IMG/VR virus record: IMGVR_UViG_3300044801_000206
Location: 2,606 to 66,605 of that record
From: a virus
DNA length: 64,000 nucleotides
Strand: one strand, 5' to 3'
The notes under the pieces are model-generated. The model did no database searches. It was given only the letters and a program-made list of their open reading frames with translations, and had not been told where the DNA came from. Positions 19,237 through 46,045 of the stretch are shown here, piece after piece. Each line of letters opens with the position of its first letter. The stretch's first letter is position 1. The position numbers and the translations under genes were made by a program.

Positions 19237-19354
19237 ATGTATCGGCCCTCGTAATTCTTTCCAGAGCCCGGTGCGGGCTTTCAGGAGCCAACGTAGAGGA
19301 TGTCGTCTCATGCGTTTCCTGAGAAGCCGTCGCGTTCACGCGACGGTAGTTCAC
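19237..19354 (+). ncRNA. Orphan omegaRNA scaffold of element C TnpB, followed by new guide TTCCTGACCAACTTGTCGCC
   Basis: 118-bp exact copy of 31753-31870 ending at TCAC. No tnpB or left end adjacent. RNA function is inferred. Confidence 0.75.
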
Positions 19355-19521
19355 TTCCTGACCAACTTGTCGCCTTCTAAGGACCATTGCCCGTCCGGCA
19401 GTTTCCGGTACCGCAGGATGGTCCGCAGGATCAGATTCAACTGCAATTGCAGTTCATCGGCCTGGAGTTTGATCGTCTCCAGCATGCCCTTTTCGTCAGC
19501 GGTTAGGACGTATTCGTTCAT
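19351..19521 (-). CDS. Small hypothetical protein (56 aa, MNEYVLTADEK...LVRK)
   Basis: GGTGGAG RBS. The stop TGA is supplied by the inserted IS end. Confidence 0.6.
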   Translation of the reverse strand: MNEYVLTADEKGMLETIKLQADELQLQLNLILRTILRYRKLPDGQWSLEGDKLVRK

Positions 19522-19537
19522 GCTCCACCTTTTGCTT

Positions 19538-19978
19538 TCAAAAGATCACGGATGAATTAACGAAGTCTACCATCAAGGTACCGCTGATTGACTTCAGTGT
19601 AAAATCTCCATTTAGCTGCAAGCAGTAAGCCGTAAAAGAGACTCCCGATGCTGGCGTGATTGTAGTGGTCCCTGGGCTGCCATCGGAAGTGAGAACTGTA
19701 GACGCAACCGTTCCCGATCCAACGGTTTGAGCCATGGTTTGGGCATTTCCATTGACATCCAAGTACGTGATCGTGAACCGTACCGCAGATCCCACTGGCG
19801 CGGCGGCAGCTACCCATACAGTGGGTTGGCAGGATTTTACAAAGGGCAGTATGGACATTAAGTTCTGGCACGCCCGGATATTCATATTCTCAATCAAGAC
19901 TACCTGGAACCCGGCTTGATTGCTTTGAGCAATTGCACCCCAGGCAAAGAGTAAAACGATAAACAGCAACTTCCTCAT
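19538..19978 (-). CDS. Secreted protein
   Basis: Signal peptide MRKLLFIVLLFAWGAIAQ. AGGAGG RBS. Confidence 0.7.
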   Translation of the reverse strand: MRKLLFIVLLFAWGAIAQSNQAGFQVVLIENMNIRACQNLMSILPFVKSCQPTVWVAAAAPVGSAVRFTITYLDVNGNAQTMAQTVGSGTVASTVLTSDGSPGTTTITPASGVSFTAYCLQLNGDFTLKSISGTLMVDFVNSSVIF

Positions 19979-19990
19979 ATAAGCCTCCTT

Positions 19991-22900
19991 TTAAGCGGCG
20001 TATTTCACACGGTTAGAATCACTAGGATCATACCATAATTGCTTGGTCCCTGATCCCGGATCACTTGATGGCAAACCCTGATGAACAAATGCCGATCCAT
20101 TCAAATTAACAACATGCGTCCCATCGTAAAGATAGAGAATCCCCGAACCCGCATCAACCTTCAAATCGGCGTAAGCAGAGGGAGTGGCCGTCGAGGAAAG
20201 AAGCAGGCGGCCGGCCTGCCCCCCGGAGACAGCATTGGTATATAAGTCTACGGTTTTTGTCGTTGAATATAGCAGGAATAGTTCAAAAGGCCTGATGCCA
20301 ACATAAGCTCCGGTGGAGTTGTCGAGACACTTAAACCCCGCATATCCAGCTCCGTAGCTATCATAATAATTTGCAATGCTTGTCGTGATCCCGTTCAGGA
20401 TGAGGCTCAATGTTCCCTGTACGATCGCCACTGACGAAGATGTGATCGTTACGCTACTGCCGCCGCTCGCCAAAGTGATCCCCGATGTGTTCAGGGTTAT
20501 ATAGGCGGTCCCGTTGTAGACCATCTGGATACTGGACGACGAAATGATCACTGAGTAGTTGTTGGCACCTCCGAAGGAACTGGCGATAGTGATGCCAGAG
20601 CCGGTTAAGCTCATATATGGGCTGCTCACCAACCCGCTCCCGCCTCCAGACGCCGCCGTGCTGTACAGCGTCATGCCGGACGAACTCAGGTCGATCAGGG
20701 GATTGCCGCTGCCGCGGCTGAAGATCGCGTCTCCTGTGAAGATGGCCGTGCCTTGGGTGACATTGGCCGCCGCGAGCTTGTTCAGCCCCACGCTGGCGAT
20801 CAGCGAGTCCACTAGGGCCAGCGCTGCAACCACCGTGGCGGCGTTGCCAGTGGTGATGTTCACCGCAAGTTGGCCGGCGACTGTACTGAGTCCTGCTCCC
20901 ATGGCGAGCGTGGTGGTATTCCCGCTCTTGGTCAACGGTGCAGCGACGCCTGATACCAGGAAACTGTTGGTGAAGATGATTGTCGAGGAAGTCCCGCTCA
21001 GCGTGTCAACCGATGCCTGCATACTCACGGCGTTGTTGGGCACGGTACCTGTCAACGAGAACGGTTGCAACGTCGAGGTGAGTAAACTGGTCAAGTTAAG
21101 CGTGGCGGATGACACCACGCCCCCGCTGGCGTTCAAGAAGATCAACCGCATTTCCGTGGTGCCGCTGCCGGCGCCGGCCGTCACTGCCGCCCAGATCTCG
21201 AAGATGTAATTGTCCGCCGGGCGGACAGTGAAAGTCTGATACAGGCCGGCTACGCCGGAGGCTACAATCTGGAAACACTGAACGGCGAAGCCCAGACTGC
21301 TGTTCGAGACCGTCGAGTACGTGCCAGTCGAATCCGGCGTCCACCCTACCAACCCCTGAATGGCTGATGGATTGACCAGCATGTTGTTGGAATTGCCGGT
21401 CGGCGGAGGTCCGACATGCAGCAGAAATGTGGAGGTTTGCAGCGTAGCTGTAGAGTCGCCAGTGTAAGGCGGGCTGTTTACGGTGTTGTCACGGCTCAAT
21501 CCCCAGATCGAGAACTTTAGATATCCGTCAACCCCTGGCCCCGGATAGTTCCCTTCCAGGGAAGGCTCAACAAAGGTGGCACCAGTGTTGGGGACTTCGA
21601 TGTTCTTGTTGAACCCGCTGGTATTTGAAACCCCTCCAGGGTTAATTGGATTGCCGCTGGAGTCCGTCCACTCCACGCACAACTGGTAGAAGGCGCAGTT
21701 GGGGTCTCCTTGCAGGGGCGTTGTTAGTGAGACCGCAACAGCCCAATACGGATTTCCAAGCCCGTTGGCGCCCATGTAGATGTTGGCTGGGGTAGGGGAG
21801 GAACCGCCGACGTTGGTGACTGTGATCGTGGCACCGCCGGCAATCGGGGAAGCGGCGATCGGCACCGTCAAGATGTTGCTCAGTGTTGCGACCGTCGCGC
21901 CTGGGTTAGCGTATTGATTCGCCCCGTAGGCCCCGACCTGGATAGACTGTGCAGAGGTCTGGACAAGGATCTGGAACAAAACGGTCGTGAGGTAATGCGT
22001 TCCGTCGTTGTCCACGCGATCAGGGACAACGGTTGGTGAAGACGGGATTGCCGTCCACCCGCCGGTCGCAGTGGCAACCCAAGTGCCGCTCTGGTTCTGA
22101 TAGTACTGCGAACTGCTGGTCAGGTAGACATATATCCCCGCTGGATAGTTTGGGTTCGGAAGGCTTGGCAGGGAAGCGACTCGGTTTGTAAGGCTGAACT
22201 CCAGGTTCAGAATCGTGCTCAACACGCCGCTCATCAGTTCCTTGACAACCATTTGAAGAGTAGCGTACGTGGTCTGATTCTGATCGAGTGTGCGTATGCC
22301 GGTATCCGTCAGAACGATGCTGGATGGTTGTGTCGGTGGGCCATTGATGACGATCGTGCAAGATGCAGTTGTGGCAGTAGCGCTGGCATGGTCCGTGACT
22401 TGGCCGACGAACGTGAAAGTCCCGCTCACCGTTGGATTGCCGGTGATGGCTCCGGTGCTGGCACTGAGCGATAGGCTGGTTGGTAGAGAGCCGCTGGCGA
22501 GAGAATAGGTGTAGGGGGAGACTCCACCGGTTGCGATCAAAGCCCCTTGGTAAGCCAGCCCAATCAACCCAGCGGAGCCGGCAAAAGAGATTTGCAGGGG
22601 CGTGCTGGAAACGGCCGCACTGATGACGATGGTGCAGGAAATCGTGGCGATATTGCCGGCGGTGTCCGTCACGCTCCCGGAGACTGCGTAGGGGCCGACA
22701 GTCGTGGGTGTGCCAAAGATGATGCCAGTGCTCGTATTGAGCGAAAGGCCGGGCGGGAGACCACTGGCAGAATAGATGTAGGGAGGGGACCCACCAGTTG
22801 CCGTGAAAGCTCCACCATAGACCACCCCGATAATCCCTGTGCTCCCGGAGAAGCTGATTGCCAGAGTAGACGTAACCGCCGCAGTAGCTTTCAAGGCCTG

Positions 22901-23035
22901 CTGGGCGGCCTGCTGTGCAGTAATGGCAGTGGATTGAGCAAGGTCCAGCCGCAGGTTCAACCGATAAAGACCTGGGTCCTTCAGATCATTTTGGGAGACA
23001 TTGATCTGAGGCGAATTGGTGTTCTCGTTGGCCAT
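19991..23035 (-). CDS. Tail fibre/host-recognition protein with two He_PIG-like domains and a CBM-like domain
   Basis: Two GGxxPY..LPxxLSL..STG.I.G.PT motifs. NMLVNPS..GLVGW..LYQTFTV is CBM4/9-like. Confidence 0.7.
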   Translation of the reverse strand: MANENTNSPQINVSQNDLKDPGLYRLNLRLDLAQSTAITAQQAAQQALKATAAVTSTLAISFSGSTGIIGVVYGGAFTATGGSPPYIYSASGLPPGLSLNTSTGIIFGTPTTVGPYAVSGSVTDTAGNIATISCTIVISAAVSSTPLQISFAGSAGLIGLAYQGALIATGGVSPYTYSLASGSLPTSLSLSASTGAITGNPTVSGTFTFVGQVTDHASATATTASCTIVINGPPTQPSSIVLTDTGIRTLDQNQTTYATLQMVVKELMSGVLSTILNLEFSLTNRVASLPSLPNPNYPAGIYVYLTSSSQYYQNQSGTWVATATGGWTAIPSSPTVVPDRVDNDGTHYLTTVLFQILVQTSAQSIQVGAYGANQYANPGATVATLSNILTVPIAASPIAGGATITVTNVGGSSPTPANIYMGANGLGNPYWAVAVSLTTPLQGDPNCAFYQLCVEWTDSSGNPINPGGVSNTSGFNKNIEVPNTGATFVEPSLEGNYPGPGVDGYLKFSIWGLSRDNTVNSPPYTGDSTATLQTSTFLLHVGPPPTGNSNNMLVNPSAIQGLVGWTPDSTGTYSTVSNSSLGFAVQCFQIVASGVAGLYQTFTVRPADNYIFEIWAAVTAGAGSGTTEMRLIFLNASGGVVSSATLNLTSLLTSTLQPFSLTGTVPNNAVSMQASVDTLSGTSSTIIFTNSFLVSGVAAPLTKSGNTTTLAMGAGLSTVAGQLAVNITTGNAATVVAALALVDSLIASVGLNKLAAANVTQGTAIFTGDAIFSRGSGNPLIDLSSSGMTLYSTAASGGGSGLVSSPYMSLTGSGITIASSFGGANNYSVIISSSSIQMVYNGTAYITLNTSGITLASGGSSVTITSSSVAIVQGTLSLILNGITTSIANYYDSYGAGYAGFKCLDNSTGAYVGIRPFELFLLYSTTKTVDLYTNAVSGGQAGRLLLSSTATPSAYADLKVDAGSGILYLYDGTHVVNLNGSAFVHQGLPSSDPGSGTKQLWYDPSDSNRVKYAA

Positions 23036-26000
23036 TACGCTGCTCCTTCACCGAGGCCCATCAGTTCATTGAAATTCATCTGCCGCAAGCCAGCGTGCCG
23101 GTCGCCACCGCATTCAATCCATTCCAGACCAGACCCTTCAGTATAGAAGGCTAGGGGAGTTGCCGCTGTAATCTGCACTCTGTAGGTTTTGCTTTTGTTG
23201 TACCCACTGCCCCAAACAGAGGGCAACAAGAAGCGTTCTACCGCTCTCGTGGCATGCGCCGGCAAAGTGGCCGTGAATGTGCCTGTATCGGACAAGATCG
23301 TCACCGTGATCTGAGATGCGCAAGTGTACATCCACCAGCCTTGGAAGACGAACTTCCAAAACTTCACCCCAAAGGTCTGTTCATACGAGTCCCAGATCGT
23401 TACGGCAGCCGGCTCTTTGACATTCTCCACCGTCCAATCCCAGAGCTTGGCGAGACCATTTGTCCCTGGTGTCAACAACAGGCGCCATTGCGTTCCCGAC
23501 AGATTCGAATTGCATGGCAGAATCACTCGCCGCGAGGTATACGTGGTGTTCACGCTGAACACCTGCACCGTCCCGGCTTCTTGTGTTTGTAGCGCAATCG
23601 CGCAGGCTACACCGCCAGTGTTGATGGTAAGAATCAGATTACGCGCGAGCTTGGGGTAGGGATAGCCGAGATCAGACCATGGTGTCCAGAGAACTACATC
23701 CGCCGGGTCAGAGCCGGAAGATTCAGGGATAGGGCTCCAGCGATTAAACGCCCACGAAAATTGCTGGTACTTGCCTCCGTTGCCAGGCGTGATAGTCAGC
23801 CGCCACATTTTGGCGAACACATCCACAGGGATCGGATAGTTATTTTTCCGATTGTCCACCGACCCTGTGTGGTTCACGGTCATCACCGTGCCGTTTTCAT
23901 TCTGCAAAATGACGGCCGCTGGCACGCTTTGGGTGTCTGCATCAATGGAGAGCCATGTCGGATTCTTGTCATTTTGGCTCTCCGCGTCCTTCCAGCCGGT
24001 GCTGTAGATGATGTCCGCAGGATACGGGTCAAAATCGAACTTATATTTCCACTGCTTAAAGCCAGCCGGAATGGTGCCGCCGGAGGGGTAAACGCGGACC
24101 ATCTTGGCAATTGTGTCCGGCGCCAACGGAAACACGCATTTGCTCCGGCCTCCCGTGAGGGTGAAAGACGCTACTGCGGGCGTCACGGTCTGCCCGGCAA
24201 TGCCGCTGAGAGTATCCATCACCAAGTTCACGTTCGATCCGCTGGTGTCGTCCCACTCAATCGTGATTGTCCGAAGGTACTTGTCCCACGGGTGTCCAAG
24301 GTCATCCCAATCAAACGTGTGGCCCACCACTCCTGGGTCGGCAGGCTGAAACTTGAAACTGTGGTTGAATAGCTGAAACTCCCCGCCGCCACTGGTCAAC
24401 GCCGGTTGATTCGGGTCCACGAACAGGCGCCACATTTTCCCCTGCAATCCGGTTGGGATAGTGACGTTAATTTTCCGGTTTTCCTCCGTGGCTTTCGCGT
24501 TGAAGATAAAAACCGTCGCCCCGTCAGCCTGCACCTCTACCGTCACATCGACGTTATTGGTGTTGACTTCGATGTCCAACTGGTTCAGGTACTTGTTATA
24601 CTCCGAACCGCCATCTTCCCACTTCGTAAAGGCGACGATATCTGGGGGGTATTGCTCGTGCTGGAAATTGTACTTCCAGGATTTGAACCCTATCGGCAGA
24701 GGTGTGGTCTGCGGGTAGAGCCGGATGTCCTTCGCGATCAGCCCGTCAGGGAGCGGGAACGTGCGCTCACTGCGGCCAGCGGTCCCAAGATCGAATGTTG
24801 CCACTGCGGACTGGACGGTCCCACCGCCAATGCCAGTCAACAGGTCCAGCACCATCACGACATCACTGCCGCTGGTATTGTCCCATTGGATTGTAACGGT
24901 GTACAGCCGCTTATCGTAGGGATAGCCTAGATCATCCCAATCGAAAGTGTGTTGGACTTCTCCCTTATCCGCCTTCTGGAAAGCAAAGCGATGGTTGAAA
25001 AGCTGCCACATGCCGCCGCCGATGGTCAGAGCCGTTTGAGTGGGATCAACAAAGATACGCCATTTCCTGCCTTTCAGATTTGGCGGTAGCGTAATGTTGA
25101 CCCTGCGATTGGACTCTGTAGTGGTGATGGCGAAGGGCGGCCCGGCATTGGCACCGTCTGTTTGAATCCGAACCGTTACTGCGACGTTGTTGGTGTTCAC
25201 CTCGAAGGTAACTTGGTTGGCGTACTTGTCGTACTCGTAGCCGTCATCCTCCCACGGCGTAAAGGCAACGATGTCTGCGGGATAGTCTTCTTTCTGGAAA
25301 CTGTACTTCCAGTTCTTGAAGCCAACCGGGATGGCCCCGACGGATGGATAGAGTCGGATCGCTTTGGCAATCAGTCCGTCGAGTAATGGGAATGTGCGTT
25401 CGCTGCGACCGGTGCCGGCACCCAGATCAAACGTCATCACTGCGGAGCGTACCGTGCCACCGCTCACGCCACTCAACAGGTCGAGCACCATGACCACATC
25501 TGCACCGCCGGTGTTGTCCCATTGCAGCGTGACGGTATACAACCGCTTGTCGAACTGATGGCCCAAGTCGTCCCAGTCAAATGTATGCTGGACTTCTCCC
25601 TTATCGGCCTTTTGGAAGGCAAAGCGATGCGAAAACAACTGCCACATACCGCCGCCCGAAGTCAATGCCGTTTGGGTAGGGTCAACAAACAAACGCCACT
25701 TTTTACCCTTGAGGCTGGTAGGCACGGTGATATTGACGCGCCGGTTTGACTCAGTAGTTTGCGCAGTCCCAGTGAAAACCGTAGCGCCGTCTGTCTGTAC
25801 CAGAAAAGTGACGCTCACGTTGTTTGTGTTCACTTCCAAATCGATTTGATTCAAATACTTGTCGTACTCATACCCACCGTCTTCCCAAGGCGTAAAGGCC
25901 ACAATGTCAGCGGGATAGTCTTCTTTTTGAAAACTATATTTCCACCCTTTGAAGGTGACCGGCAGGGTGGTTTGTGGGTATAGCCGGATTGCCTTTGCGA

Positions 26001-30183: not shown

Positions 30184-30314
30184 AGAATTTAAGCCTCGGG
30201 GACTGTTGCCTTCAGGCGACAGCGGAAGAGGCTTTCGGCGCTAGCCGACTGCCTTTCCCGGTTTAGTACTCCTGGGTCTTGCATTAACTGTCCGTCAGGT
30301 GCATACTCGCATAA

Positions 30315-30713
30315 GTGAGCGAGCGATACGCTAAAAATGCCGGAGCGGTTTTCAGTCTCAAGTACCACGTCGTGTGGTGTCCGAAGTACCGCCGCTCCGT
30401 GCTGGTCAAGCCGGTTGACATTCGATTGAAGGCGCTGCTTCGGCAGAAGGCCGAAGAGTTGGGGTTGACGATTCACACGATGGAGGTCATGCCCGATCAC
30501 GTACATCTGTTCGTGGAGGGTGGCCCTACGATCTGCGTTGCCGAGATCGTCAACAGGCTGAAGGGCTTCACGTCGCACGCGCTGCGCGAGGAGTTCCCGT
30601 TTCTTAAGTCGCGGCTGCCGACGCTCTGGAGTCGGAGCTACTACGCCGGTTCGATTGGCTCCGTCAGTGAAGCCGTGGTCCGAAAATACATCGAAGGGCA
30701 GAAGGGGAAGTAG
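30315..30713 (+). CDS. tnpA: IS200/IS605 Y1 transposase
   Basis: YHVVWCPKYRR, PDHVHL, KYIEGQ. Confidence 0.95.
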   Translation: MSERYAKNAGAVFSLKYHVVWCPKYRRSVLVKPVDIRLKALLRQKAEELGLTIHTMEVMPDHVHLFVEGGPTICVAEIVNRLKGFTSHALREEFPFLKSRLPTLWSRSYYAGSIGSVSEAVVRKYIEGQKGK

Positions 30714-31838
30714 ATGCGGCTCACCTACAAATACCGGCTGATCCCCACGAAGGCGCAGGCAGTCTTCCTGTCCGGCGAGCTTCGCGATGCCTGTTCGCTC
30801 TACAACGCCGCTCTCGAGGAGCGCATCGGGGCCTGGAGAACATGCCGCAAGAGCATCAACTACTACGACCAGGCGAACCAGTTGAAGGCGATGCGCGCCG
30901 ACGGCTGCCTGACACTGGCGAATTTCTCGTGCTGCCAGGATGTGTTGCGCCGGGTCGATAAGACGTACAAGGCGTTCTACGCTCGCGTGAGGCGTGGTGA
31001 GACGCCAGGCTTCCCGCGCTATCGTCCCGCCCGCAGGTACGACAGCATCACCTTCCCGTCCTATGGCGACGGATGCCGTCTGCTGCCTAACGGTAAGCTG
31101 CGCATCCAGGGCGCGGGGCACATCAAGGTCAAATTGCACAGGCCGCTGGAGGGAGCCGTCAAGACCGTGACAGTTAAACGTGAGGCTGGCCGGTGGTTCG
31201 TAATCTTCAGTGTGGAGCGGGATGCCGCTCCGCTTCCGGTCAGTAATCGCGCTACGGGAATCGATGTCGGACTGAACAATTTCGCCGTACTGGCAGACGG
31301 CACGGAGATTCAGAACCCGTGCTACTACCGAAAGGCACAGGCCCGGTTGCGCTGTGCTCAGCGGAAGGTGGACCGGCGGAAGAAAGGCGGCATCCGGCGG
31401 CGCAAAGCTGTACGGTTGCTCCAGCGGGCGCATGTCCATGTCGGCAACCAGCGGCGTGACTTCCAGCACAAGCTGTCGCGCCAATTGGTCAACGAATACG
31501 GTGTGATCGCCGTCGAGGACTTGAACGTGAAGGGGCTCGCTGGTGGGATGCTGGCGAAGTCCGTCCACGATGCCGGATGGTCGATGTTCCTGGGAATGAT
31601 CGCGTACAAGGCTGCGAGCGCCGGACGCGAAGTCATCCAGGTTGACCCGCGTGGCACGAGCCAGACGTGCGTCTGTGGGCAGCGCGTGGCCAAGACTCTC
31701 GCGGATCGGTGGCACGATTGCCCGGTTTGCGGATTGTCGGCTAGCCGCGATCATGTATCGGCCCTCGTAATTCTTTCCAGAGCCCGGTGCGGGCTTTCAG
31801 GAGCCAACGTAGAGGATGTCGTCTCATGCGTTTCCTGA
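30714..31838 (+). CDS. tnpB: TnpB RNA-guided endonuclease
   Basis: YNAALEER, GIDVG, VEDL, CVC/CPVC, SRDH. Acidic triad retained. Confidence 0.95.
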   Translation: MRLTYKYRLIPTKAQAVFLSGELRDACSLYNAALEERIGAWRTCRKSINYYDQANQLKAMRADGCLTLANFSCCQDVLRRVDKTYKAFYARVRRGETPGFPRYRPARRYDSITFPSYGDGCRLLPNGKLRIQGAGHIKVKLHRPLEGAVKTVTVKREAGRWFVIFSVERDAAPLPVSNRATGIDVGLNNFAVLADGTEIQNPCYYRKAQARLRCAQRKVDRRKKGGIRRRKAVRLLQRAHVHVGNQRRDFQHKLSRQLVNEYGVIAVEDLNVKGLAGGMLAKSVHDAGWSMFLGMIAYKAASAGREVIQVDPRGTSQTCVCGQRVAKTLADRWHDCPVCGLSASRDHVSALVILSRARCGLSGANVEDVVSCVS

Positions 31839-31881
31839 GAAGCCGTCGCGTTCACGCGACGGTAGTTCACAAACTCACTAT

Positions 31882-39209: not shown

Positions 39210-39256
39210 GCGCTATTCACTTTTCAAATCATTCTGCCGGCGGTAACTGGTTGTTG

Positions 39257-40399
39257 GGTAGTGGGTCACTTTGGCCCTTCTGCCGAAACGCCGACAACGC
39301 TCCTACCGAGCGCGTTCTCGCCTAAAGCGAGAATATTGATGGCCGCGTTGTGATCACGGTTCAAGGATAACCCGCAATGCGGGCATTCATGCCAGCGATC
39401 CGCTAGTCCCTTCGGAACTGTCTCACCACATCGGCTACATCTCTGCGTCGTACCCCTGGGATTCACTGCCACAACATAGCGCCCGGCGCGTTCGGCCTTG
39501 TACGCAAGGTGGAACAGGAGTTGCCCCCAAGCAGCATCTAAAATACTTTTGGCAAGGTATCCCTTCACCATGTTCGAAATCTTCAAATCTTCATGCGCGA
39601 TTAGGTCGTAGCGTGCTACCAGAGCCTTCGAAACGTGGTGGCAGAAGTTCTTACGAGCGTCGGCCATCCGCTGATACGCGCGGCGCGTTTGCTCTTTAGC
39701 ACGGAGCCGATTCTTACTGCCGCGTTTCTTCCGCGCCAGATTCTTTTGCGCCCGCGCGATCCGCTGTACATGCTGCCGGATGAAGCGCGGATTGGGAATC
39801 TCGCTACCATCCGATAATGTGGCAAAGGTGGTCAACCCAACGTCAATGCCTACAGGATGCGACACAACACATTTCCCTGGCGCTGGGCCAATGTCGCACG
39901 TCACACGCCCCACCCATTTCTTGCCAACCAGTTTGATTGTGGCCTGCTTGATAGTTCCTTTTATCTCCTGGTGCGCCTTGAATCGCACATGGCCCAGATT
40001 CGGAACCAGCACTGCGTCACCGTGAATTCGTGGGCTATGCCACGCGAATGATGTGTAGCGGTCCACCGACCGGAAACGCGGGAATCCAGGATCCTCACCG
40101 CTTTTGCAACGGCGGAAGAACGCTTTGAATGCCCGGTCGATCCGCCGTAGAGGTTCACGTTGAATGTCTGATGCGATCACGGAAAACTGTGGATCTTCAC
40201 GTAGACGCGCCAATTCCGCGCACTGGTCGTATAGGCTGATGCTTTTGTGTTGAAGTTTCCAAGCGTCCCGGCGTTCCTGGAGAGCCGCGTTGTACGTTTC
40301 CTGCGAGTCCAACAGAATACGCGCGAACGCTTCCTTCTGCTTCCGCGTCGGCTTCAATCGCAACTCGTAAGATCGCATCATTCAAACTGACCCACTACT
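39257..40399 (-). mobile_element. Element D: tnpB flanked by 11-12-bp terminal inverted repeats and an 8-9-bp target duplication
   Basis: GGTAGTGGGTCA at 39257-39268 and TGACCCACTACT at 40388-40399. Direct repeat GGTTGTTG at 39249-39256 and 40400-40407. Confidence 0.85.
39266..40381 (-). CDS. tnpB: TnpB RNA-guided endonuclease (intact RuvC)
   Basis: YNAALQER, GIDVG, HEDL, CSRC/CPHC, NRDHNAA. Confidence 0.95.
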   Translation of the reverse strand: MMRSYELRLKPTRKQKEAFARILLDSQETYNAALQERRDAWKLQHKSISLYDQCAELARLREDPQFSVIASDIQREPLRRIDRAFKAFFRRCKSGEDPGFPRFRSVDRYTSFAWHSPRIHGDAVLVPNLGHVRFKAHQEIKGTIKQATIKLVGKKWVGRVTCDIGPAPGKCVVSHPVGIDVGLTTFATLSDGSEIPNPRFIRQHVQRIARAQKNLARKKRGSKNRLRAKEQTRRAYQRMADARKNFCHHVSKALVARYDLIAHEDLKISNMVKGYLAKSILDAAWGQLLFHLAYKAERAGRYVVAVNPRGTTQRCSRCGETVPKGLADRWHECPHCGLSLNRDHNAAINILALGENALGRSVVGVSAEGPK

Positions 40400-40607
40400 G
40401 GTTGTTGCCGGGAGGAAGATCCGGAGGCTTTGGAGTATGGCTTGTAATCTTCAACAACAATGCTCCGCTAATCCCTGTTGTCAGCCCAGCGACCGTCTGG
40501 TAAAACTGGCCATCAGTTTTGAACCACCACTCCGCGAAGAATAGAGCGACTGTGAAGAATATCAGCAGAGCCGCCAACAAAACCACCATCGGGTCGATCT
40601 TCTGCAC
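40395..40607 (-). CDS. Two-TM membrane protein, possible holin
   Basis: Two hydrophobic segments. C-terminus truncated by element D. Confidence 0.55.
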   Translation of the reverse strand: MQKIDPMVVLLAALLIFFTVALFFAEWWFKTDGQFYQTVAGLTTGISGALLLKITSHTPKPPDLPPGNNQ

Positions 40608-40820: not shown

Positions 40821-40821
40821 C

Positions 40822-41100
40822 TTACTTCTCCTTTCTGCTTACGAACGCATCGCCGGGTTCGAAAGTCCGGGCTCCCATCCCTCCTAAAAGATTTTGGCCA
40901 CGCTGAATGTCCGCGTGGTCCTCGTCACGTTGCGCCCAATCATCCGGGCCGATCTCGCCAGGATGATCTTCTCGCCATTTGCAGCGAGCCTCGCACCGGT
41001 CCTGCGCCTCCGACATCGCCTGTAATGCAGGCTGACCTCCAGCGTGGTCCGGCTTCGTGTTCGGGCTTCCGTACGGCCCGCTGTCTGGTAGAATTGCCAT
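40822..41100 (-). CDS. Hypothetical protein
   Basis: AGGAG RBS. Tight operon packing. Confidence 0.6.
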   Translation of the reverse strand: MAILPDSGPYGSPNTKPDHAGGQPALQAMSEAQDRCEARCKWREDHPGEIGPDDWAQRDEDHADIQRGQNLLGGMGARTFEPGDAFVSRKEK

Positions 41101-41119
41101 CGTTAATCTCCTCTCTTAA

Positions 41120-41911
41120 TCAATACGCCCCGCAACTGAACACCATCACATCTCCACTCGTAGTTGTGATTGTTGGGAAGGTTGCTGAAGTCGCCGTGCT
41201 GGACAGATTCATGTAGCTAGCCCCAGTGCCAACGTTATGGTCTGAAACCAAGCAGGCATAACCATTAGTGGCAGCCGGAAGTGCCGTAAGGACAGGCGTG
41301 CAGCTTGTAGCGCCGCTGGTGAATGTCCCGTAAATGGCCCCGCCAACTTGAGTGGCAATCGTCCCACAGCCCGTCACCGTGGGCTTTGTGCCGGCCGAGA
41401 TGAACCCCCCGGTGACAGTACCGCCTGCCGCATTCACCATGCCGGTAGAATTCACCGTTGGCGCCGTCGTGCTGTCGCCGGTCCATCCGTAGTCATTTAC
41501 GCTCGCGAGGCACCCGATATTCGTGCTTACAGCGGCTTTGCCTGTGCTCGTTGGCGGCCCCGCCCCTGTCACCGTCCGCCACACTGTCCAACTGGAAGCG
41601 TTTGCTGCACAAACGTGGCTGATCATGTTGAATTGGGTGGCGTTCAAAAATACCGGGCCTGCTGTGGCCGAACCTGTTGCACTGCCAGCATTGCTGGTGC
41701 CATCCGGCAGGTTGTCGGCAACCACGTAGGACCAAGTGTGCGAACACCCGCTGAAGCATACCGGCGTGATAGTCGGTGTAGCGGCCGGACTAGCGAGTGC
41801 AGTGGCAGTGATTGACCCCACTTTCAGCGCCATACTTGGCTGATTCTGGTAATTGGGGGGCTGCGCCAAAGCAGCCGCTGCACATAACGCGATGATCGCT
41901 AACAGTCTCAT
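41120..41911 (-). CDS. Secreted Thr/Gly/Cys-rich protein
   Basis: Signal peptide MRLLAIIALCAAAALAQ. GGAG RBS before ATG at 41911. Confidence 0.7.
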   Translation of the reverse strand: MRLLAIIALCAAAALAQPPNYQNQPSMALKVGSITATALASPAATPTITPVCFSGCSHTWSYVVADNLPDGTSNAGSATGSATAGPVFLNATQFNMISHVCAANASSWTVWRTVTGAGPPTSTGKAAVSTNIGCLASVNDYGWTGDSTTAPTVNSTGMVNAAGGTVTGGFISAGTKPTVTGCGTIATQVGGAIYGTFTSGATSCTPVLTALPAATNGYACLVSDHNVGTGASYMNLSSTATSATFPTITTTSGDVMVFSCGAY

Positions 41912-41947
41912 GTAAGCTCTCCGTGTCCGCCCGGCGGACAATCAAAA

Positions 41948-43132
41948 TCAATATGGCCCGGACCCCCAAAACGCGCCGAGTTGGGGATCATTCAACTGCC
42001 ATGTATCAAAGTTTCCAGGCACGCCGTTCCACCAGTTGCCTTTCATGGCTTGCAGCACCTTGGCTTCGTCAGCGTTACGCGCCTCCTGTAAAGCCACTTG
42101 GAATTTTCCCTCGTAGTATTTCGCCCCTTCTGGGTCGTAATAAGGGTCATCTTTTCTGGTGCGCGACATCTTGGCATCCGCCACAGCGCCATAGTACAGG
42201 ATCGACGGGTTGATAAACGGTGGCGGCCTGTCGGTGTCTTTGATCATTTCTGGCCATTGCTTCCAGTAAGCGTAACTGAACTGCCGTTGATTAGGCGGAG
42301 CCGGCCATAACTCGTACATTGCGTTGCCCTGATCGTTAGCTCCCCAATCCACCAGGCTGTACCAGGGGTTCCCAGCCACTATTGTCCGCTGCGGATCCCG
42401 GAAGTCAGCCTCTTGTAGAGCAACGTGCAATCGAACAGGATACCCGGTGGCCTCATCCTTCATGGCGATGATGGCCTTCAAATCGCTGGCCAGTGTAACG
42501 TACATGAGTTGGATCTTGTACGCAACGTTGGTGAGCGGCGGTCCACCCCATGGCAGGGTCAAGATCAGCGTGCCATTACCGGATCCACCTGGGTCAAGAT
42601 AAGTCACCGCTGCGACGGTAAACGTCGGGTAGGATTCGCCGGGCCGGAACTGCTGATTCGCCAAAGAAGACTGCGTAATCGTGCAGGGGCCATTGTGCAT
42701 TTTGGTGAAGTTGGCGATGAAGCTGGTGCGGTTCAATTGAACTACCGACACGATCTCCGGGGTGCCACCCGCGTCCACGTACAACCGGCTGTCTGCGGTA
42801 AGCCCCTGCATGGACGCTGGCGTGACTTCCACATACCCGAACTCCGGCACGCCCGCTGCGATAACCGTATTTACTACGTCAGCGACTGGCCAGAAACTGC
42901 CTGTGCCAGCAACTGTCGCGCTGCCGGTGGTAGTGCTCATCGTGCCGGTCATGGTCGCGCCGGGGAATGACAAGATCCCGAAGGTCAACAAGTCGGCCCA
43001 AAACGTACGATTATCCATGATCTGCCGCAAACGATCGCTGATAGCGTTGTTGACAAAATCCGGGGTGACTTCAGGGCGAGTATTGAGAACTCTGCCGCGG
43101 ATCCGAAAAAGATCGTCTCGAAATTGGCTCAC
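41948..43132 (-). CDS. Putative adaptor/tail tubular protein with inserted beta-rich domain
   Basis: YELWPAP..YAYWKQWPEM..LYYGAVADA pattern. Lies after the capsid genes. Confidence 0.6.
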   Translation of the reverse strand: MSQFRDDLFRIRGRVLNTRPEVTPDFVNNAISDRLRQIMDNRTFWADLLTFGILSFPGATMTGTMSTTTGSATVAGTGSFWPVADVVNTVIAAGVPEFGYVEVTPASMQGLTADSRLYVDAGGTPEIVSVVQLNRTSFIANFTKMHNGPCTITQSSLANQQFRPGESYPTFTVAAVTYLDPGGSGNGTLILTLPWGGPPLTNVAYKIQLMYVTLASDLKAIIAMKDEATGYPVRLHVALQEADFRDPQRTIVAGNPWYSLVDWGANDQGNAMYELWPAPPNQRQFSYAYWKQWPEMIKDTDRPPPFINPSILYYGAVADAKMSRTRKDDPYYDPEGAKYYEGKFQVALQEARNADEAKVLQAMKGNWWNGVPGNFDTWQLNDPQLGAFWGSGPY

Positions 43133-43148
43133 GTTTTTGCCCTATAAT

Positions 43149-43190
43149 AAAAACCCCGTGCGGAGGTGCCGGAACTCCTCTCGCACGGGG
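43149..43190 (-). terminator. Intrinsic terminator after capsid/decoration genes
   Basis: CCCCGTGCG...CGCACGGGG stem followed by TTTTT on the - strand. Confidence 0.7.
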
Positions 43191-43234
43191 CGATGTCTCC
43201 GCAATCCGCGAAGCCTAAATTGTCTCAGCCGTCT

Positions 43235-43474
43235 TCAGGTCTGAAGCAGACCGTAGCCCTTCCAGGTACTAGTACTTCCGTCGGCGCCTGCCGTTGTACA
43301 AATCCAACCAAGGTAGGACGCACCGCCTGCGGCCGGCGCCGTGTTCCAAACGATGTCGCCGATCTTGTAGGGTCCTGTATCTGTGGCCGCCGAAGGAGCC
43401 GCTGTGCCCCAGTATTCGACCAGATTGAGGTCATTGCGATACTGTCGATGTTGCCGATATGGTTCGAGAGCCAT
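43235..43474 (-). CDS. Small putative capsid decoration protein
   Basis: GDIVWNTAPAAGG..GWICTTAG motif. AAGGAG RBS. Confidence 0.6.
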   Translation of the reverse strand: MALEPYRQHRQYRNDLNLVEYWGTAAPSAATDTGPYKIGDIVWNTAPAAGGASYLGWICTTAGADGSTSTWKGYGLLQT

Positions 43475-43536
43475 AAGCGTTTCTCCTTACGTGCCGTTTG
43501 TTTCAATCCACGCGCCCAACGGAGGGCGTGACTTCG

Positions 43537-43995
43537 TTACGTGCCGAGGTATCCGCCGCCGGCCGTGCCCACCAAGTTCTCCATGAGCAGCATTTCCACG
43601 TCGATGAACAACGTGCCAGCGGTCAGGCCGCTGAGGTTGTTGGTGGTCGAGGTGAAGAATGCCTGAAGAGTGTCGGCCGCATAGGTCGCTGCCAACGCAG
43701 CAGCGGCTGCCGCGAGGAATTGAGTGTCTCCTACGGCGTGGAACACATCGGTAGTCGCCGAGAAGGTGGTTGCCGAACCAGCCGCACAGCCGATCGAACA
43801 GGTGACTGCCGTTTCGCCGCCACCCGTGAAGGCCACGTTGGTTTTCATCCGGACGCTTTTGACGAGCGAACCGATGGGCAACGTGTCCAGGGCGACGGTA
43901 GCAGTCTTGGCCGCTGCCGTTGCATCGGTGAAGGTCACGGTGTACCGCATCAGGACGGAGCCGGGGCCCATGGTCATCAATTGAGTCTTTGTCAT
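43537..43995 (-). CDS. Putative capsid decoration/cement protein
   Basis: Follows the major capsid gene. LPIGSLV..V...VAFTGG beta-sandwich pattern. Confidence 0.6.
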   Translation of the reverse strand: MTKTQLMTMGPGSVLMRYTVTFTDATAAAKTATVALDTLPIGSLVKSVRMKTNVAFTGGGETAVTCSIGCAAGSATTFSATTDVFHAVGDTQFLAAAAAALAATYAADTLQAFFTSTTNNLSGLTAGTLFIDVEMLLMENLVGTAGGGYLGT

Positions 43996-44021
43996 AGTCT
44001 TTCTCCCTTTCGGTCTCCTCC

Positions 44022-44996
44022 TTAGAACAGCGTTGTGCTCGTCAGTTTGAAGCAGGTACGGGCGCCCGGCACCAGCAGCGTGGTTCCTGCGAGGAACTGT
44101 CCAGCGGTGTCGATGCCCAACTGGGTTCCTTTGAACCCGGTGAACCCGAAGTTGAACAACGGGTTGGCTGAGAAAAACCACTCGATGCCCTCGGAGCAGA
44201 GGCCCCACATGCGGCCGGCGGTCCCGGTTGGCGCGTAGGGGTCCATGACCACTTCGGCCTGATTGACCCGGACGGTAGCAAAGCCAGCTTGCGCCACGTC
44301 GGAAACCGTGTCCACATGCTGCTGCATCGGTTGCAGCGAATTCCAGACCAGATCCCAGCCGTTACGAGTTGCGGCTACTAGATCCACATGCTTGGTCCCA
44401 ACCCAAGCCTGCGTGCAGGCCTTGTTGAGATCCTTCAATGTGAAGCCGGTGAGCGCCGCCGTGTAGGCATTCATGCCGAGGATCACGCCGGCTGCGGCGA
44501 TATCTGCTCGGGTGATGCCGCCAATGGTGGTGAAGAGAGTGCCATCATCCACCCACTCTTCGAGGCCCGTCAGGTTGCGGTTGCGGCCTAACGTCGAAGA
44601 CGTGAGGTACAAGTCCTGCGCCAGCAACTCAGCCATTTCGGCGGAGGCGTTGGCAAACTTCAAGTCCACTTCGTTGAACACTGCCATGTCGCCGTCGTTG
44701 TTCATGGCGTTGAAGCCAACCAACGGCACATTGACCAGATAGAGACGCATGGGAACTTGCAGAGCAGTTTCCGTCGTCACGATCTGGGAAGGGGCACCCT
44801 CGCCGGGCCCAACCGCAGCGCCGGCCAGCTTGCCGATGATGAGCGGGCGCTGGACCAGAAGTCCGCCACGGAAGGTGTTGCGCCGCTGCTTTGACAACCG
44901 TACGAATACGGGGCTTGATTGGTACACCGTGTCGGTGGCCTTCCCCACAATCAGGTTGTGCGTGTAAGCGTTAATGCCCGGAATCGGGACTGCCAT
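44022..44996 (-). CDS. Major capsid protein
   Basis: 324 aa after the scaffold gene. DTVYQSSP..GG..QRP, LTGL..VD, IGGITR, VVMDPYAP motifs. Confidence 0.8.
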   Translation of the reverse strand: MAVPIPGINAYTHNLIVGKATDTVYQSSPVFVRLSKQRRNTFRGGLLVQRPLIIGKLAGAAVGPGEGAPSQIVTTETALQVPMRLYLVNVPLVGFNAMNNDGDMAVFNEVDLKFANASAEMAELLAQDLYLTSSTLGRNRNLTGLEEWVDDGTLFTTIGGITRADIAAAGVILGMNAYTAALTGFTLKDLNKACTQAWVGTKHVDLVAATRNGWDLVWNSLQPMQQHVDTVSDVAQAGFATVRVNQAEVVMDPYAPTGTAGRMWGLCSEGIEWFFSANPLFNFGFTGFKGTQLGIDTAGQFLAGTTLLVPGARTCFKLTSTTLF

Positions 44997-45021
44997 AGCT
45001 GTCTCTCCTTAAACCCGCGTT

Positions 45022-45819
45022 CTACTGCACTGGACCGAAATCACCGCGTCGGTACGCCTCGTATCCAAGCGCTGCCAACTCACCGGTCCCAGGTTTTGCC
45101 GAGGCGATTTTCGCCTTGAACTCATCCGAGACCTTTGCCGGCGCTCCCACATGGGCCGTAATCCCGGCGATGCCTCCGGTTTGATCCGTTGGCAACACGC
45201 CATTGGGCCCCATTGCTCTTTCCTGGGCTGCTTTGGCGTAGCCCCTTTGCTCTGCGGCTGCAAGATCTGCCGCAGTCTTTGTTTCCAATTCTTTCTGTGC
45301 GTTCGCCGCGATCTCCGCCCGCTTCTCGGCGACCATCTTGTCGTAGGCCACATCCGGGTCCTGGATGCCGGTATTGACGATGACTTCTCTCAACTTGGCG
45401 GGATCAAGGCTTTCACCGAACTCCTTCTGGTGCGCGAAGGCTTTCTTCGTCACAGCCTCATAGAAGTAGTTCATCCCGTTGATCTTGTCCTGGAAATCCT
45501 TCGCGGTGGACTTCTTGATATCGTCCAGCCGGGCCTGGAGTTTCGTGTCCAACTGCTGGTCGTCTACCGTGCCGACGCCGGCCGCCAGGCGGGCTTGTGC
45601 AGCGTCGAGATCAGCGCGCAACTGCTTCTCCACCTTGGTCATGCCAGCCTGCGGGTCCCAGTTTTCCTTCTGCCAGTTCACCCACGATCCGGCAAAGTTA
45701 GCTGTGGTCGCGAGATCGGATTCCATCTTGGCTACCGATGCCTGCAACTCTGGGTACTTCTTCAGAACTGCTTGATCTTCCGTCGGAACTTTTGCTAAGA
45801 ATTCGTCAAAAAAACTCAC
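45022..45819 (-). CDS. Capsid scaffolding protein
   Basis: Helical, charged, directly upstream of the capsid gene. GGAGG lies 9 nt before the GTG at 45819. Confidence 0.7.
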   Translation of the reverse strand: MSFFDEFLAKVPTEDQAVLKKYPELQASVAKMESDLATTANFAGSWVNWQKENWDPQAGMTKVEKQLRADLDAAQARLAAGVGTVDDQQLDTKLQARLDDIKKSTAKDFQDKINGMNYFYEAVTKKAFAHQKEFGESLDPAKLREVIVNTGIQDPDVAYDKMVAEKRAEIAANAQKELETKTAADLAAAEQRGYAKAAQERAMGPNGVLPTDQTGGIAGITAHVGAPAKVSDEFKAKIASAKPGTGELAALGYEAYRRGDFGPVQ

Positions 45820-45833
45820 GGTCAAATTCCTCC

Positions 45834-45951
45834 TTGACACTCCCCACGGCTGAAGCCGGGGGATTCACAGTTCAACACCGACTGCCTCCAACTGCGGAGG
45901 TCTTACACCGGCTCCCTGTGCGTTTAAACTCTTCGCGTGCCCCGCGACGAG
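45834..45951 (-). ncRNA. Orphan omegaRNA scaffold of element B TnpB, followed by new guide GGAGGAATTTGACCGTGAG
   Basis: 118-bp exact reverse-complement copy of 7280-7397. Preceded by TTAC+C. Confidence 0.8.
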
Positions 45952-45966
45952 GGTAATCCGACCTTG

Positions 45967-46045
45967 GGTAGTGGGTCACTTTGGCCCTTCTGCCGAAACG
46001 CCGACAACGCTCCTACCGAGCGCGTTCTCGCCTAAAGCGAGAATA
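45967..46045 (-). ncRNA. Orphan 3' scaffold of element D TnpB, followed by new guide CAAGGTCGGATTACC
   Basis: 79-bp exact copy of 39257-39335, including the right inverted repeat. Confidence 0.75.

What the first reader, a model, noticed from the sequence alone, without database searches (positions are those of the whole stretch)
19237..46045. Candidate system: each intact TnpB has a detached, re-targeted omegaRNA elsewhere in the phage
Seen: three intact tnpB genes (B, C, D) each have one 100% identical second copy of only their 3' end (118, 118 and 79 bp). Each copy stops at the transposon end and is followed by unrelated phage sequence. I found no such copy for the broken tnpB (element A). 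Established: TnpB omegaRNA consists of the 3' part of tnpB plus the right end, with the downstream flank serving as guide. Inference: the copies give each nuclease a second guide in trans. Lacking a left end, they could not be excised by TnpA, so they would be fixed guides that cut empty alleles in co-infecting relatives (homing or phage competition), a CRISPR-like guide repertoire without repeats.
Basis: partly seen in the sequence, partly recalled or inferred. Interest (0 to 1): 0.92.

Follow-up and report, generated by a model that had tools for sequence, protein, structure and literature searches.

The report
Leftover TnpB guide-RNA modules in phage
A peat-soil phage that carries several small jumping genes also holds short, exact, gene-less copies of their guide-RNA ends next to new sequence; these are real DNA and could steer the phage's own RNA-guided nucleases to new targets, but they may simply be scars of recent jumping.

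Summary
The repeats are real. C' (19237-19354) is 118/118 identical to the end of element C. B' (45834-45951) is 118/118 within 136 nt at 95%. D' (45964-46048) is 84/85. Independent k=31 contigs from three peat runs bridge both C' junctions, so C' is not a k~119 artefact.

Comparative folding puts every conserved helix of the C and B guide-RNA (omegaRNA) scaffolds inside the copied 118 nt. No left end remains.

The one-orphan-per-nuclease picture is too tidy:
- D' abuts B', so its "guide" is B' sequence.
- Two further 35-nt end fragments (F') have no nuclease in the contig, and one sits 4 nt before C'.
- Element D is a different kind of element, with inverted ends and an 8-bp target duplication.

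The population is transposing now. One run holds an empty allele of C, extra C insertions, and a C-type fragment at the B'/D' locus.

Best reading (0.5): right-end remnants of recent insertions, of which two are sequence-complete omegaRNA genes. Selected trans-guides: 0.3. That reading is helped by an unrelated complete phage with a tnpB-less omegaRNA module behind a perfect promoter.

Expression, loading and targets are untested. Standalone omegaRNAs acting in trans are already known in bacteria.

The parts
2535..3341 (-). Element A: broken tnpB. About 57 N-terminal codons are in one frame and the RuvC-I-to-end part is in another, with roughly 115 codons missing at about 3165. It has no second copy.
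   Evidence: In runs X2 and X4 the left end of a C-type element is joined exactly after the CCAT at 3164-3167.
5668..7397 (+). Element B, an IS200/IS605-type element. TAM TTAC is at 5664-5667. The left-end hairpin follows. tnpA (Y1) is at 5802-6176 and tnpB at 6173-7366. The right end stops at ...GTGTCAA|.
9147..9181 (+). F'a: a 35-nt terminal fragment (...TATATAATTCCC|) of the tnpB family with inverted ends and an 8-bp target duplication. No F-type tnpB is present in the contig.
19198..19232 (+). F'b: the second copy of the 35-nt terminal fragment (97% identical). It lies 4 nt upstream of C' on the same strand.
19237..19354 (+). C': an orphan right-end/omegaRNA module, 118/118 identical to 31753-31870. 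It starts 2 nt after the RuvC-III Asp codon of the parent and ends at the C terminus. The putative guide is 19355-19374 (TTCCTGACCAACTTGTCGCC).
   Evidence: Junctions are bridged by k=31 contigs in X1-X3 (left) and X1-X2 (right).
19351..19521 (-). A 56-aa ORF whose stop codon lies in the last 4 nt of C'. The putative C' guide is antisense to its 3' end.
30184..31870 (+). Element C, an IS200/IS605-type element. TAM CCAT is at 30180-30183, which is the reverse complement of the start codon of the 2382-aa gene. The left-end hairpin is at 30203-30222. tnpA is at 30315-30713 and tnpB at 30714-31838. The right-end hairpin precedes the terminus ...GGTAGTTCAC|. The native guide begins AAACTCACTATTTATTGCC.
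   Evidence: The element is polymorphic in run X2: the empty allele has depth 13.9 against about 30.
39256..40398 (-). Element D: a tnpB-only element (gene 39266-40381). It has 10-bp inverted ends TAGTGGGTCA/TGACCCACTA and an 8-bp target duplication AACAACCA (40399-40406 and 39248-39255). It has no Y1-type hairpin ends.
45966..46048 (-). D': an orphan copy of the last 83 nt of D (1 mismatch), ending at the D terminus ...CACTACCC. It is followed directly by B', not by phage sequence.
45834..45969 (-). B': an orphan right-end/omegaRNA module of B. The last 118 nt (45834-45951) are exact and the preceding 18 nt match at 11/18. It ends at the B terminus. It is followed at once by the ribosome-binding site and GTG of the gene upstream of the major head gene. 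The putative guide is GGAGGAATTTGACCGTGAGT.
44022..45819 (-). Late structural genes just downstream of B': a 265-aa gene (45022-45819, no named family) and the major head protein (44022-44996). D' and B' have the same orientation as these genes.

Best explanation
They are real DNA, lack a left end and cannot move.

Origin (inferred). An element inserts in the usual way, which fixes the exact terminus|flank junction. Its left part is then lost. The loss could come from deletion, from an abortive half-integration, or from interrupted copying during repair of a TnpB cut.

Stacking. Later insertions at the same permissive intergenic sites give stacked fragments: D'+B' and F'+C'.

Consequence (inferred from sequence only). 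B' and C' still hold the whole omegaRNA scaffold joined to a new flank. If transcribed, they would load the co-resident TnpB-B and TnpB-C in trans. The guide would be directed at the unoccupied ancestral form of their own locus: TTAC or CCAT followed by the flank. B' lies in the sense strand of the late operon, so it is likely to be transcribed. D' and both F' fragments show that such fragments also persist without any plausible guide function. I therefore do not assume that the set was selected as a guide repertoire.
For: Shown:
- Exact repeats that end at termini independently defined by related elements with other flanks.
- C' junctions are present in k=31 contigs of 3 runs (left) and 2 runs (right), with 2x depth inside the repeat.
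- No left-end remnant within 300 nt upstream of either locus. Only 7-8-nt matches were found, all with E>=0.8.
- Ongoing transposition in the same population. X2 holds an empty allele of C. X2 and X4 hold a C left end inserted after a CCAT inside tnpB-A. X1-X3 hold a C right end with a third flank. X2 holds a C-type right-end fragment, starting at about -106, joined to the left flank of the B'/D' locus right after AACCA(T).
- Fragment lengths form a series: 35, 35, 83, about 106, 118 and 136 nt. Two of them (F') have no cognate tnpB. One (D') has transposon sequence as its flank.
- Scaffolds are complete in C' and B'. Four and nine base pairs respectively show compensatory changes.
- In B, the conserved hairpin loop GGGACAC/GGGGCAC is complementary to the 3' GUGUC. 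This resembles the ISDra2 pseudoknot geometry.
Against: - All six fragments keep only the last 140 nt or less of elements that are 1.1-1.7 kb long. If deletion end points fell at random, six out of six would be very unlikely (my arithmetic: (140/1700)^6).
- No left-end-only fragment exists.
- The upstream fragments sit at -122 and -132 of C' and B', just outside the 118-nt scaffolds.
- Both identity tracts are exactly 118 nt, close to the 116-nt functional ISDra2 scaffold.
These regularities suggest either a right-end-specific mechanism or selection to keep whole scaffolds.
- An unrelated complete phage (G003) carries a tnpB-less module of the B family behind a 12/12 consensus promoter. Detached omegaRNA genes therefore do seem to be built for expression in some phages.
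Confidence: 0.5

Rival explanations
1. Selected trans-guides. B' and C' are kept because they give TnpB-B and TnpB-C a second, fixed guide. The resulting complex cuts the unoccupied allele in co-infecting relatives. Repair from the orphan-bearing genome then copies the orphan and its neighbours, which is homing or marker exclusion. If repair fails, the competitor is killed.
For: - Whole scaffolds are retained with 6-27 nt to spare.
- The fragments have a narrow length range, and only right ends survive.
- They are 100% identical to the parent.
- C' is present in all three runs with usable cover.
- B' is co-oriented with, and directly upstream of, the late structural genes.
- No self-target exists. 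The right ends finish in TCAC or TCAA, not in the cognate motifs CCAT or TTAC.
- omegaRNAs work in trans (passages).
- G003 carries a stand-alone module behind a perfect TTGACA-17-TATAAT promoter.
- The only empty allele of C seen in X2 has an 8-bp duplication. It mismatches the native guide from position 9 onward. This is what a cleavage-resistant allele under TnpB drive would look like (mismatch rule from PMC10097598 passages).
Against: - No promoter-like site at either locus.
- C' is antisense to its neighbours.
- D' and the F' fragments cannot be guides against phage DNA, yet they persist in the same architecture.
- No relatives, no empty alleles of the orphan loci and no RNA data.
- The direct and inverted repeats flank essential genes, which carries a recombination cost.
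Confidence: 0.3
2. Scars of interrupted homing. TnpB cuts an unoccupied allele about 20 nt to the right of the target motif. The right-hand DNA end copies leftwards from an occupied template through the right end of the element. Synthesis then stops after roughly 35-140 nt, and the end is joined to the left side. The product is a right-end-only fragment with an exact terminus|flank junction. It can no longer be cut, so it is a drive-resistant allele.
For: - It explains right-end-only retention, variable 5' ends and exact 3' junctions, whatever the type of transposase (Y1 for B and C; inverted-end type for D and F).
- The X2 variant joins CCA(T), the target motif of C, directly to a C fragment.
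- The population shows both occupied and empty alleles.
Against: - This is inference only. No intermediate was seen.
- The left flank of C' (…CCCTACT) carries no CCAT.
- It does not explain the two equal 118-nt tracts or the stacking.
Confidence: 0.12
3. Assembly artefact or chimeric join. The repeat would be k-1 bases left at contig ends.
For: - Two tracts are exactly 118 nt.
- The contig's own left end starts inside a tnpB 3' end, as expected where an assembler breaks at a repeat.
Against: - Both C' junctions occur in Logan k=31 contigs of several runs.
- The 5' limit of B' is not a junction. It is a change from exact to 11/18 similarity.
- Run X1 holds 1.00 of the sampled 31-mers of 43000-48000.
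- Swapping flanks across the C repeats would turn 12.5 kb of essential genes into a circle (inference).
Confidence: 0.03
4. Exapted cis-elements. The GC-rich right-end hairpins would serve the phage as mRNA stabilisers, processing sites or attenuators upstream of the structural genes, with no link to TnpB.
For: - B' abuts the ribosome-binding site of the gene before the major head gene.
- G003 and L008 show the same terminus-then-RBS arrangement.
- The predicted folds are stable: C' has z=-3.3.
Against: - No terminator-like site was found.
- C' is on the antisense strand.
- B' (z=-1.7) and D' (z=-0.9) do not fold better than shuffled sequences.
Confidence: 0.05

Closest known systems
Standalone omegaRNAs and PATE-borne omegaRNAs used in trans by TnpB/IscB encoded elsewhere in the genome. 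Sources: Altae-Tran 2021, as summarised in PMC10691335 (passage seen); Meers et al. preprint 10.1101/2023.03.14.532601 (passage seen).
   Same: A guide-RNA module without a nuclease gene, joined to a different flank and hence a different guide, with a compatible nuclease encoded elsewhere in the same genome.
   Different: The known cases are described as 'evidently mobilized' or as PATEs with both ends. The fragments here have no left end and are immobile. They lie in a phage and are stacked behind fragments of another transposon family. Function is untested here.
TnpB-driven transposon retention and homing in IS200/IS605 (Meers et al. preprint, passages; Karvelis 2021, seen only in a search listing).
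   Same: The guide is the flank of the right end. The target is the TAM followed by that flank, in the unoccupied site. TAMs could be read here: CCAT for C and TTAC for B. An empty allele of C coexists with the occupied one.
   Different: Canonical homing restores a whole element at its donor site. Here the guide module is separated from both the nuclease and the transposase.
Partial or solo IS ends left by deletion (general knowledge of IS decay, recalled).
   Same: Truncated copies identical to a resident intact element.
   Different: Only right ends survive. All are 140 nt or shorter. Two coincide with the full scaffold.
omegaRNA arrays of the inactivated Sigma-associated TnpB (PMC10691335, passage seen).
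   Same: More than one guide module per nuclease.
   Different: Those are tandem duplications of one omegaRNA beside a nuclease-dead TnpB. Here the modules are dispersed, the stacked modules come from different families, and the nucleases look catalytically intact.
ISDra2 TnpB-omegaRNA complex (PDB 8bf8/8exa/8h1j; PMC10097598).
   Same: TnpB-C aligns over residues 5-365 at E=7e-53. The 116-nt functional scaffold has a pseudoknot between its 5' part and its last bases. The 118-nt copies here have the same size and show a comparable complementarity.
   Different: The pseudoknot here is inferred from complementarity and conservation, not from a structure. Rfam holds no matching family.

Membership tests
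IS200/IS605 element (for B and C) | Y1 (HUH) TnpA gene | tested here: met
   PF01797 at E=2.9e-39 for C and E=2.9e-44 for B.
IS200/IS605 element (for B and C) | TnpB with HTH, OrfB_IS605 and TNB domains, an intact RuvC triad and a zinc finger | tested here: met
IS200/IS605 element (for B and C) | Asymmetric ends with subterminal hairpins, insertion 3' of a 4-nt motif, no target duplication | tested here: met
   B: TTAC precedes the left end in B, L005, L007 and L009 (TTAT in L006 and L008). C: CCAT in 4 of 4 contexts, lying 19 nt before the left-end hairpin.
IS200/IS605 element (for D) | Hairpin ends, TAM, no target duplication | tested here: not met
   D has 10-bp inverted ends and an 8-bp duplication AACAACCA. 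Its relatives have ends GGGAATTATATAC...GTATATAATTCCC. Twelve of the 33 loci with both ends show a perfect 8-bp duplication.
TnpB omegaRNA gene (for the orphans) | Sequence = 3' end of tnpB plus the right end, stopping at the transposon terminus, with the flank as guide | tested here: met
   For D' the flank is B' sequence.
TnpB omegaRNA gene (for the orphans) | Complete conserved scaffold, including the 5' strand of the pseudoknot | tested here: met
   This holds for C' and B' only. C-family helices lie within -91..-1 and GTAAT at -104. The B-family first helix starts at -112, and its loop is complementary to -7..-3. It is inconclusive for D' (83 nt) and not met for F' (35 nt).
TnpB omegaRNA gene (for the orphans) | Transcribed, processed and bound by TnpB | not testable with these tools
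   No RNA run is listed as a holder. No promoter-like site was found at either locus.
TnpB omegaRNA gene (for the orphans) | A TAM-flanked target matching the guide exists | tested here: inconclusive
   There is no such site in the phage's own genome. No relatives were found, so the unoccupied alleles were not recovered.
PATE / mobilisable standalone omegaRNA | Both left and right transposon ends | tested here: not met
   No left-end similarity within 300 nt upstream of either locus. No second copy of any left end in the genome.
CRISPR array | Direct repeats alternating with spacers | tested here: not met
   The repeats are dispersed single copies from different families.

The most novel reading that the evidence does not exclude
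Phages use immobile, left-end-less omegaRNA modules as fixed extra guides for their own TnpB nucleases. The modules arise as by-products of TnpB-driven homing (partial copying from the right end). They cannot themselves be cut. They still direct cutting of unoccupied alleles in co-infecting relatives. This makes them minimal 'guide-only' homing elements and a weapon in competition between phages. The identity tract of exactly 118 nt in two unrelated elements would then mark the mature 5' end of the omegaRNA. Stacks of modules at one locus would be a repeat-free forerunner of a guide array.
Probability: 0.2. Interest if true: 0.85.

Novelty: new variant of a known kind. Interest (0 to 1): 0.6.

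Why it matters
Suppose the two complete modules do load TnpB. Then a virus has separated guide from nuclease without repeats, adaptation genes or mobility. That is a natural intermediate between 'one transposon, one guide' and a multi-guide system. It would also be a way for phages to exclude or convert competitors.

The locus is useful even if the modules are only scars. It is a rare natural snapshot of IS200/IS605 dynamics inside one phage population. Occupied, empty, re-inserted and truncated alleles coexist. The one empty allele seen carries a change that should block the native guide. This makes TnpB drive and resistance to it directly testable with reads that already exist.

Tried and rejected
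Artefact at k~119 for C': rejected. k=31 contigs bridge both junctions.

Retro-copy of a mature omegaRNA: rejected. No orphan carries the parent's guide after the terminus.

PATE-like element with a hidden left end: rejected.

Rfam: no family matched any element or orphan at E<=1. The only hit was a tRNA.

Promoter and terminator scans at both orphan loci: nothing found.

Relatives and empty alleles of the orphan loci: none found.
- Two protein-based scans of IMG/VR gave nothing.
- An exact 29-nt flank pattern gave 0 hits in IMG/VR and 0 in JGI metagenome contigs.
- A megablast of 41000-50000 against GenBank phages gave no match.
- These collections may leave out records close to the window.

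RNA evidence: no RNA holder listed.

Other points:
- No joint skipping C' was listed in the four runs. Contigs drop rare variants, so this says little.
- The G003 stand-alone module's 20-nt flank has no other exact match in IMG/VR.
- Extra short (23-50 nt) matches to the B-family hairpin in other viral records could be left ends, so I did not count them as orphans.
- I could not establish whether the third flank after the C right end is the missing part of tnpB-A. It is absent from the contig.
- Supplements of the cited papers were not seen. They may list standalone omegaRNA loci that bear on novelty.
- Literature searches for phage-borne detached omegaRNAs found none. I read only listings and passages, so this is no proof of absence.

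Full report
WHAT THE WINDOW IS. The window is bases 2606-66605 of a 66,605-nt linear IMG/VR virus record, estimated 87% complete. Nearly all genes are on the minus strand. A major head protein gene lies at 44022-44996. The DNA is held by peat metagenome runs: X1 holds 1.00 of the sampled words, X2 0.98, X3 0.97 and X4 0.30.

THE TRANSPOSONS.
- There are four tnpB loci in the window and a fifth at the contig's own left end.
- B (5668-7397, +) and C (30184-31870, +) are complete IS200/IS605 elements with a Y1 tnpA and tnpB.
- D (39256-40398, -) has tnpB only.
- A (2535-3341, -) is broken.
- The three intact TnpBs keep the aligned Asp/Glu/Asp and zinc-finger columns. TnpB-C matches the solved ISDra2 TnpB at E=7e-53 over residues 5-365.

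- Repeat finding and a self-BLAST give C' 19237-19354 = 31753-31870 (118/118).
- B' 45834-45969 is the reverse complement of 7262-7397 (136 nt, 95%). Its last 118 nt are exact and the 18 nt before them match at 11/18.
- D' 45964-46048 = 39254-39338 (84/85).
- The termini were defined independently. Related elements with different flanks end at the same base as C (L004, L011) and as B (L005-L010).
- D' abuts B'. Read on the minus strand, the locus is left flank, D', B', then the ribosome-binding site and GTG of the gene preceding the major head gene.

IS IT AN ARTEFACT? I laid Logan's k=31 contigs of four runs on 12101-32100.
- Contigs run from the left flank 30 nt into the repeat (to 19266) in X1, X2 and X3.
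- Contigs run from 30 nt inside the repeat (19325) into the right flank in X1 and X2.
- The repeat interior is a separate contig at 38.3x, against 19.2x and 16.4x for the flanks in X1.
- Both C' junctions therefore exist in the reads, and the k~119 artefact is excluded for C'.
X1 holds all sampled 31-mers of 43000-48000. B's 5' limit is a change from exact to partial similarity, not a break.

TARGET MOTIFS.
- C is preceded by CCAT in the contig, in a relative L011, and in two further contexts seen in reads. The motif lies 19 nt before the left-end hairpin.
- B and its relatives L005, L007 and L009 are preceded by TTAC. L006 and L008 are preceded by TTAT.

THE POPULATION IS TRANSPOSING NOW.
- Empty allele of C. 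Run X2 holds it at depth 13.9 against about 30 for the occupied form. It reads CCAT(AAACTCAC)x2T. Precise excision would give one AAACTCAC unit. The extra unit makes the site mismatch the native guide from position 9 onward. In ISDra2, double mismatches within positions 1-12 abolish cutting (PMC10097598, passages). The only empty allele seen is therefore one predicted to resist TnpB-C. That is an inference, but a suggestive one.
- C inside A. X2 and X4 hold a C left end joined after the CCAT inside tnpB-A, exactly where the contig's copy of A has its internal deletion.
- A third flank. X1-X3 hold a C right end followed by a flank that is not in the contig.
- A variant of the B'/D' locus. X2 holds a contig in which the left flank of that locus (…GGCTTTAACCA) continues into the C right end from about position -106. 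Different right-end fragments therefore occupy the same intergenic site in different genomes.

ARE THE ORPHANS WHOLE GUIDE-RNA GENES?
- Rfam has no matching family, so I used relatives.
- C family (C, L004, L011 and the C-like copy at the contig end). All predicted helices lie in the last 91 nt. Four pairs show compensatory changes. A conserved GTAAT lies at -104..-100.
- B family (B, L005, L008, L009, L006). The first helix starts at -112. Nine pairs show compensatory changes. The conserved loop GGGACAC/GGGGCAC is complementary to GUGUC at -7..-3.
- This matches the solved ISDra2 omegaRNA: a 116-nt functional scaffold whose last bases pair with positions about -103..-105.
- C' and B' (118 nt exact) therefore contain the whole inferred scaffold.
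- D' keeps 83 nt and lacks the first 14 nt after the catalytic Asp codon. I cannot say whether it is complete.
- L004 is about 77% identical to C overall, yet has 1 mismatch in the last 97 nt. The right-end module is conserved or exchanged far more than the gene. The B/B' pattern of 118 exact then 11/18 looks the same. B' may thus derive from a diverged B-family member.

- D is a different kind of element. The closest relatives of TnpB-D (54-62% identical) are in Acidobacteriota genomes. That family has inverted ends GGGAATTATATAC...GTATATAATTCCC. Twelve of the 33 loci with both ends carry a perfect 8-bp target duplication. D has inverted ends TAGTGGGTCA/TGACCCACTA and the duplication AACAACCA. 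It is not a Y1-type element.
- The F' fragments. The 35-nt repeat at 9147-9181 and 19198-19232 ends in ...TATATAATTCCC and is a terminal fragment of that family (F'). No F-type tnpB is in the contig.
- A second stack. F'b lies 4 nt upstream of C' on the same strand. F'+C' is therefore a stack like D'+B'.
- In each stack only the downstream member has phage DNA as its flank.
- The full list of terminal fragments is 35, 35, 83, about 106 (X2 variant), 118 and 136 nt. No left-end-only fragment exists. No left-end remnant lies upstream of the orphans.

INTERPRETATION.
- The exact terminus|flank junctions show that each fragment began as a true insertion.
- The lack of a left end, the graded lengths, the fragments without a nuclease and the live transposition all fit recent insertions that lost their left part.
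- Random deletion does not explain three things. All fragments are the last 140 nt or less of elements 1.1-1.7 kb long. The upstream fragments sit at -122 and -132, just outside the scaffolds. Two unrelated elements share an identity tract of exactly 118 nt.
- So either a right-end-specific process makes them, or whole scaffolds are retained by selection. Candidates for the process are abortive integration, or interrupted copying from the right-hand end of a TnpB cut.
- I cannot separate these with the data at hand. No relatives, no RNA runs and no promoters were found.
- My estimates are: remnants that are merely competent, 0.5; selected trans-guides, 0.3; interrupted-homing scars as the specific origin, 0.12; cis-element, 0.05; artefact, 0.03.

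AN INDEPENDENT LEAD. A complete, unrelated phage record (G003, 118,805 nt with terminal repeats) holds two tnpB-less modules of the B family.
- The module at G003:58446-58562(-) starts at the first scaffold helix and ends at ...GTGTCAA. It sits a few bases behind a 12/12 TTGACA-17-TATAAT promoter with an upstream TG. The nearest TnpB domain hit is more than 40 kb away.
- The module at 114790-114965 is followed at once by a ribosome-binding site and ATG, like B'.
- G003's own TnpBs are 50% and 32% identical to the TnpB that goes with this module in L008.
- This looks like a dedicated stand-alone omegaRNA gene in a phage.

WHAT IS KNOWN.
- Standalone omegaRNAs that lack nuclease and transposase have been reported in genomes holding effector loci. 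They function in trans and are thought to add targets (PMC10691335, passage).
- PATEs often encode omegaRNAs that must be used in trans (10.1101/2023.03.14.532601, passage).
- TnpB works equally well with an omegaRNA supplied in trans (10.1101/2023.11.20.567912, legend passage).
- Phage-borne tnpB is known (10.64898/2026.02.14.705889, passages).
- My searches listed no paper on left-end-less or promoter-driven omegaRNA modules in phages. I read only listings and passages.
- Verdict: a new variant of a known kind, with an unusually informative population context.

Noticed in passing
window 30180-30184 / 31867-31890 (run X2): The empty allele of element C, at about 30% of depth in run X2, reads CCAT(AAACTCAC)x2T, one 8-bp unit more than precise excision would leave. 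It mismatches the native guide of C from position 9 onward, so it is predicted to resist TnpB-C cutting.
   Followed up: partly
window 3164-3197 (-), element A: In runs X2 and X4 the left end of a C-type element is joined right after the CCAT inside tnpB-A. In the contig, the same CCAT is the left edge of A's deletion of about 115 codons. The loss of C and the deletion in A may have been a single event.
   Followed up: partly
window 46055-46084 (-) flank; run X2: A contig joins the left flank of the B'/D' locus to a C-type right end starting at about -106. This intergenic site holds different right-end fragments in different genomes.
   Followed up: no
L094:18446-18600 (= G003:58446-58600, minus strand): A complete, unrelated 118.8-kb phage holds a tnpB-less omegaRNA module of the B family directly behind a 12/12 consensus sigma-70 promoter. 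It has a second tnpB-less 176-nt module at G003:114790-114965, just before a ribosome-binding site and ATG.
   Followed up: partly
L012-L091 (genome-contig loci): A widespread tnpB-only family has inverted ends GGGAATTATATAC...GTATATAATTCCC. Twelve of the 33 loci with both ends show a perfect 8-bp target duplication, which implies mobilisation by something other than a Y1 TnpA. Element D and the F' fragments belong to it. Some members (L051, L053, L054, L060, L076) carry an extra end-like copy about 200 nt before tnpB.
   Followed up: partly
genome 1-212 (outside the window, L003): The contig starts inside a C-like tnpB 3' end (74% aa identity to TnpB-C). Its right end lacks the TnpA hairpin but keeps the other helices with compensatory changes. 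This is probably where the assembler broke.
   Followed up: partly
L004:816-940 against window 31746-31870: The last 97 nt of two elements that are about 77% identical overall differ by 1 base. L006 and L008 share 176 nt at 98% next to unrelated upstream sequence. Right-end/omegaRNA modules seem to be exchanged or conserved independently of tnpB.
   Followed up: partly
window 30180-30183: Element C sits exactly between the start codon of the 2382-aa gene (CCAT is the reverse complement of ATGG) and its former leader. The left end supplies a GAGG 11 nt upstream, which may replace the ribosome-binding site.
   Followed up: no
window 24518-27184: Four to five tandem copies of about 630 nt (67-77% identical) lie inside the 2382-aa gene.
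   Followed up: no
window 63832-63993: A run of 9-nt repeats lies at the window's right end.
   Followed up: no
window 54806-54879 (+): A tRNA gene (69 bits) lies on the strand opposite to most genes.
   Followed up: no
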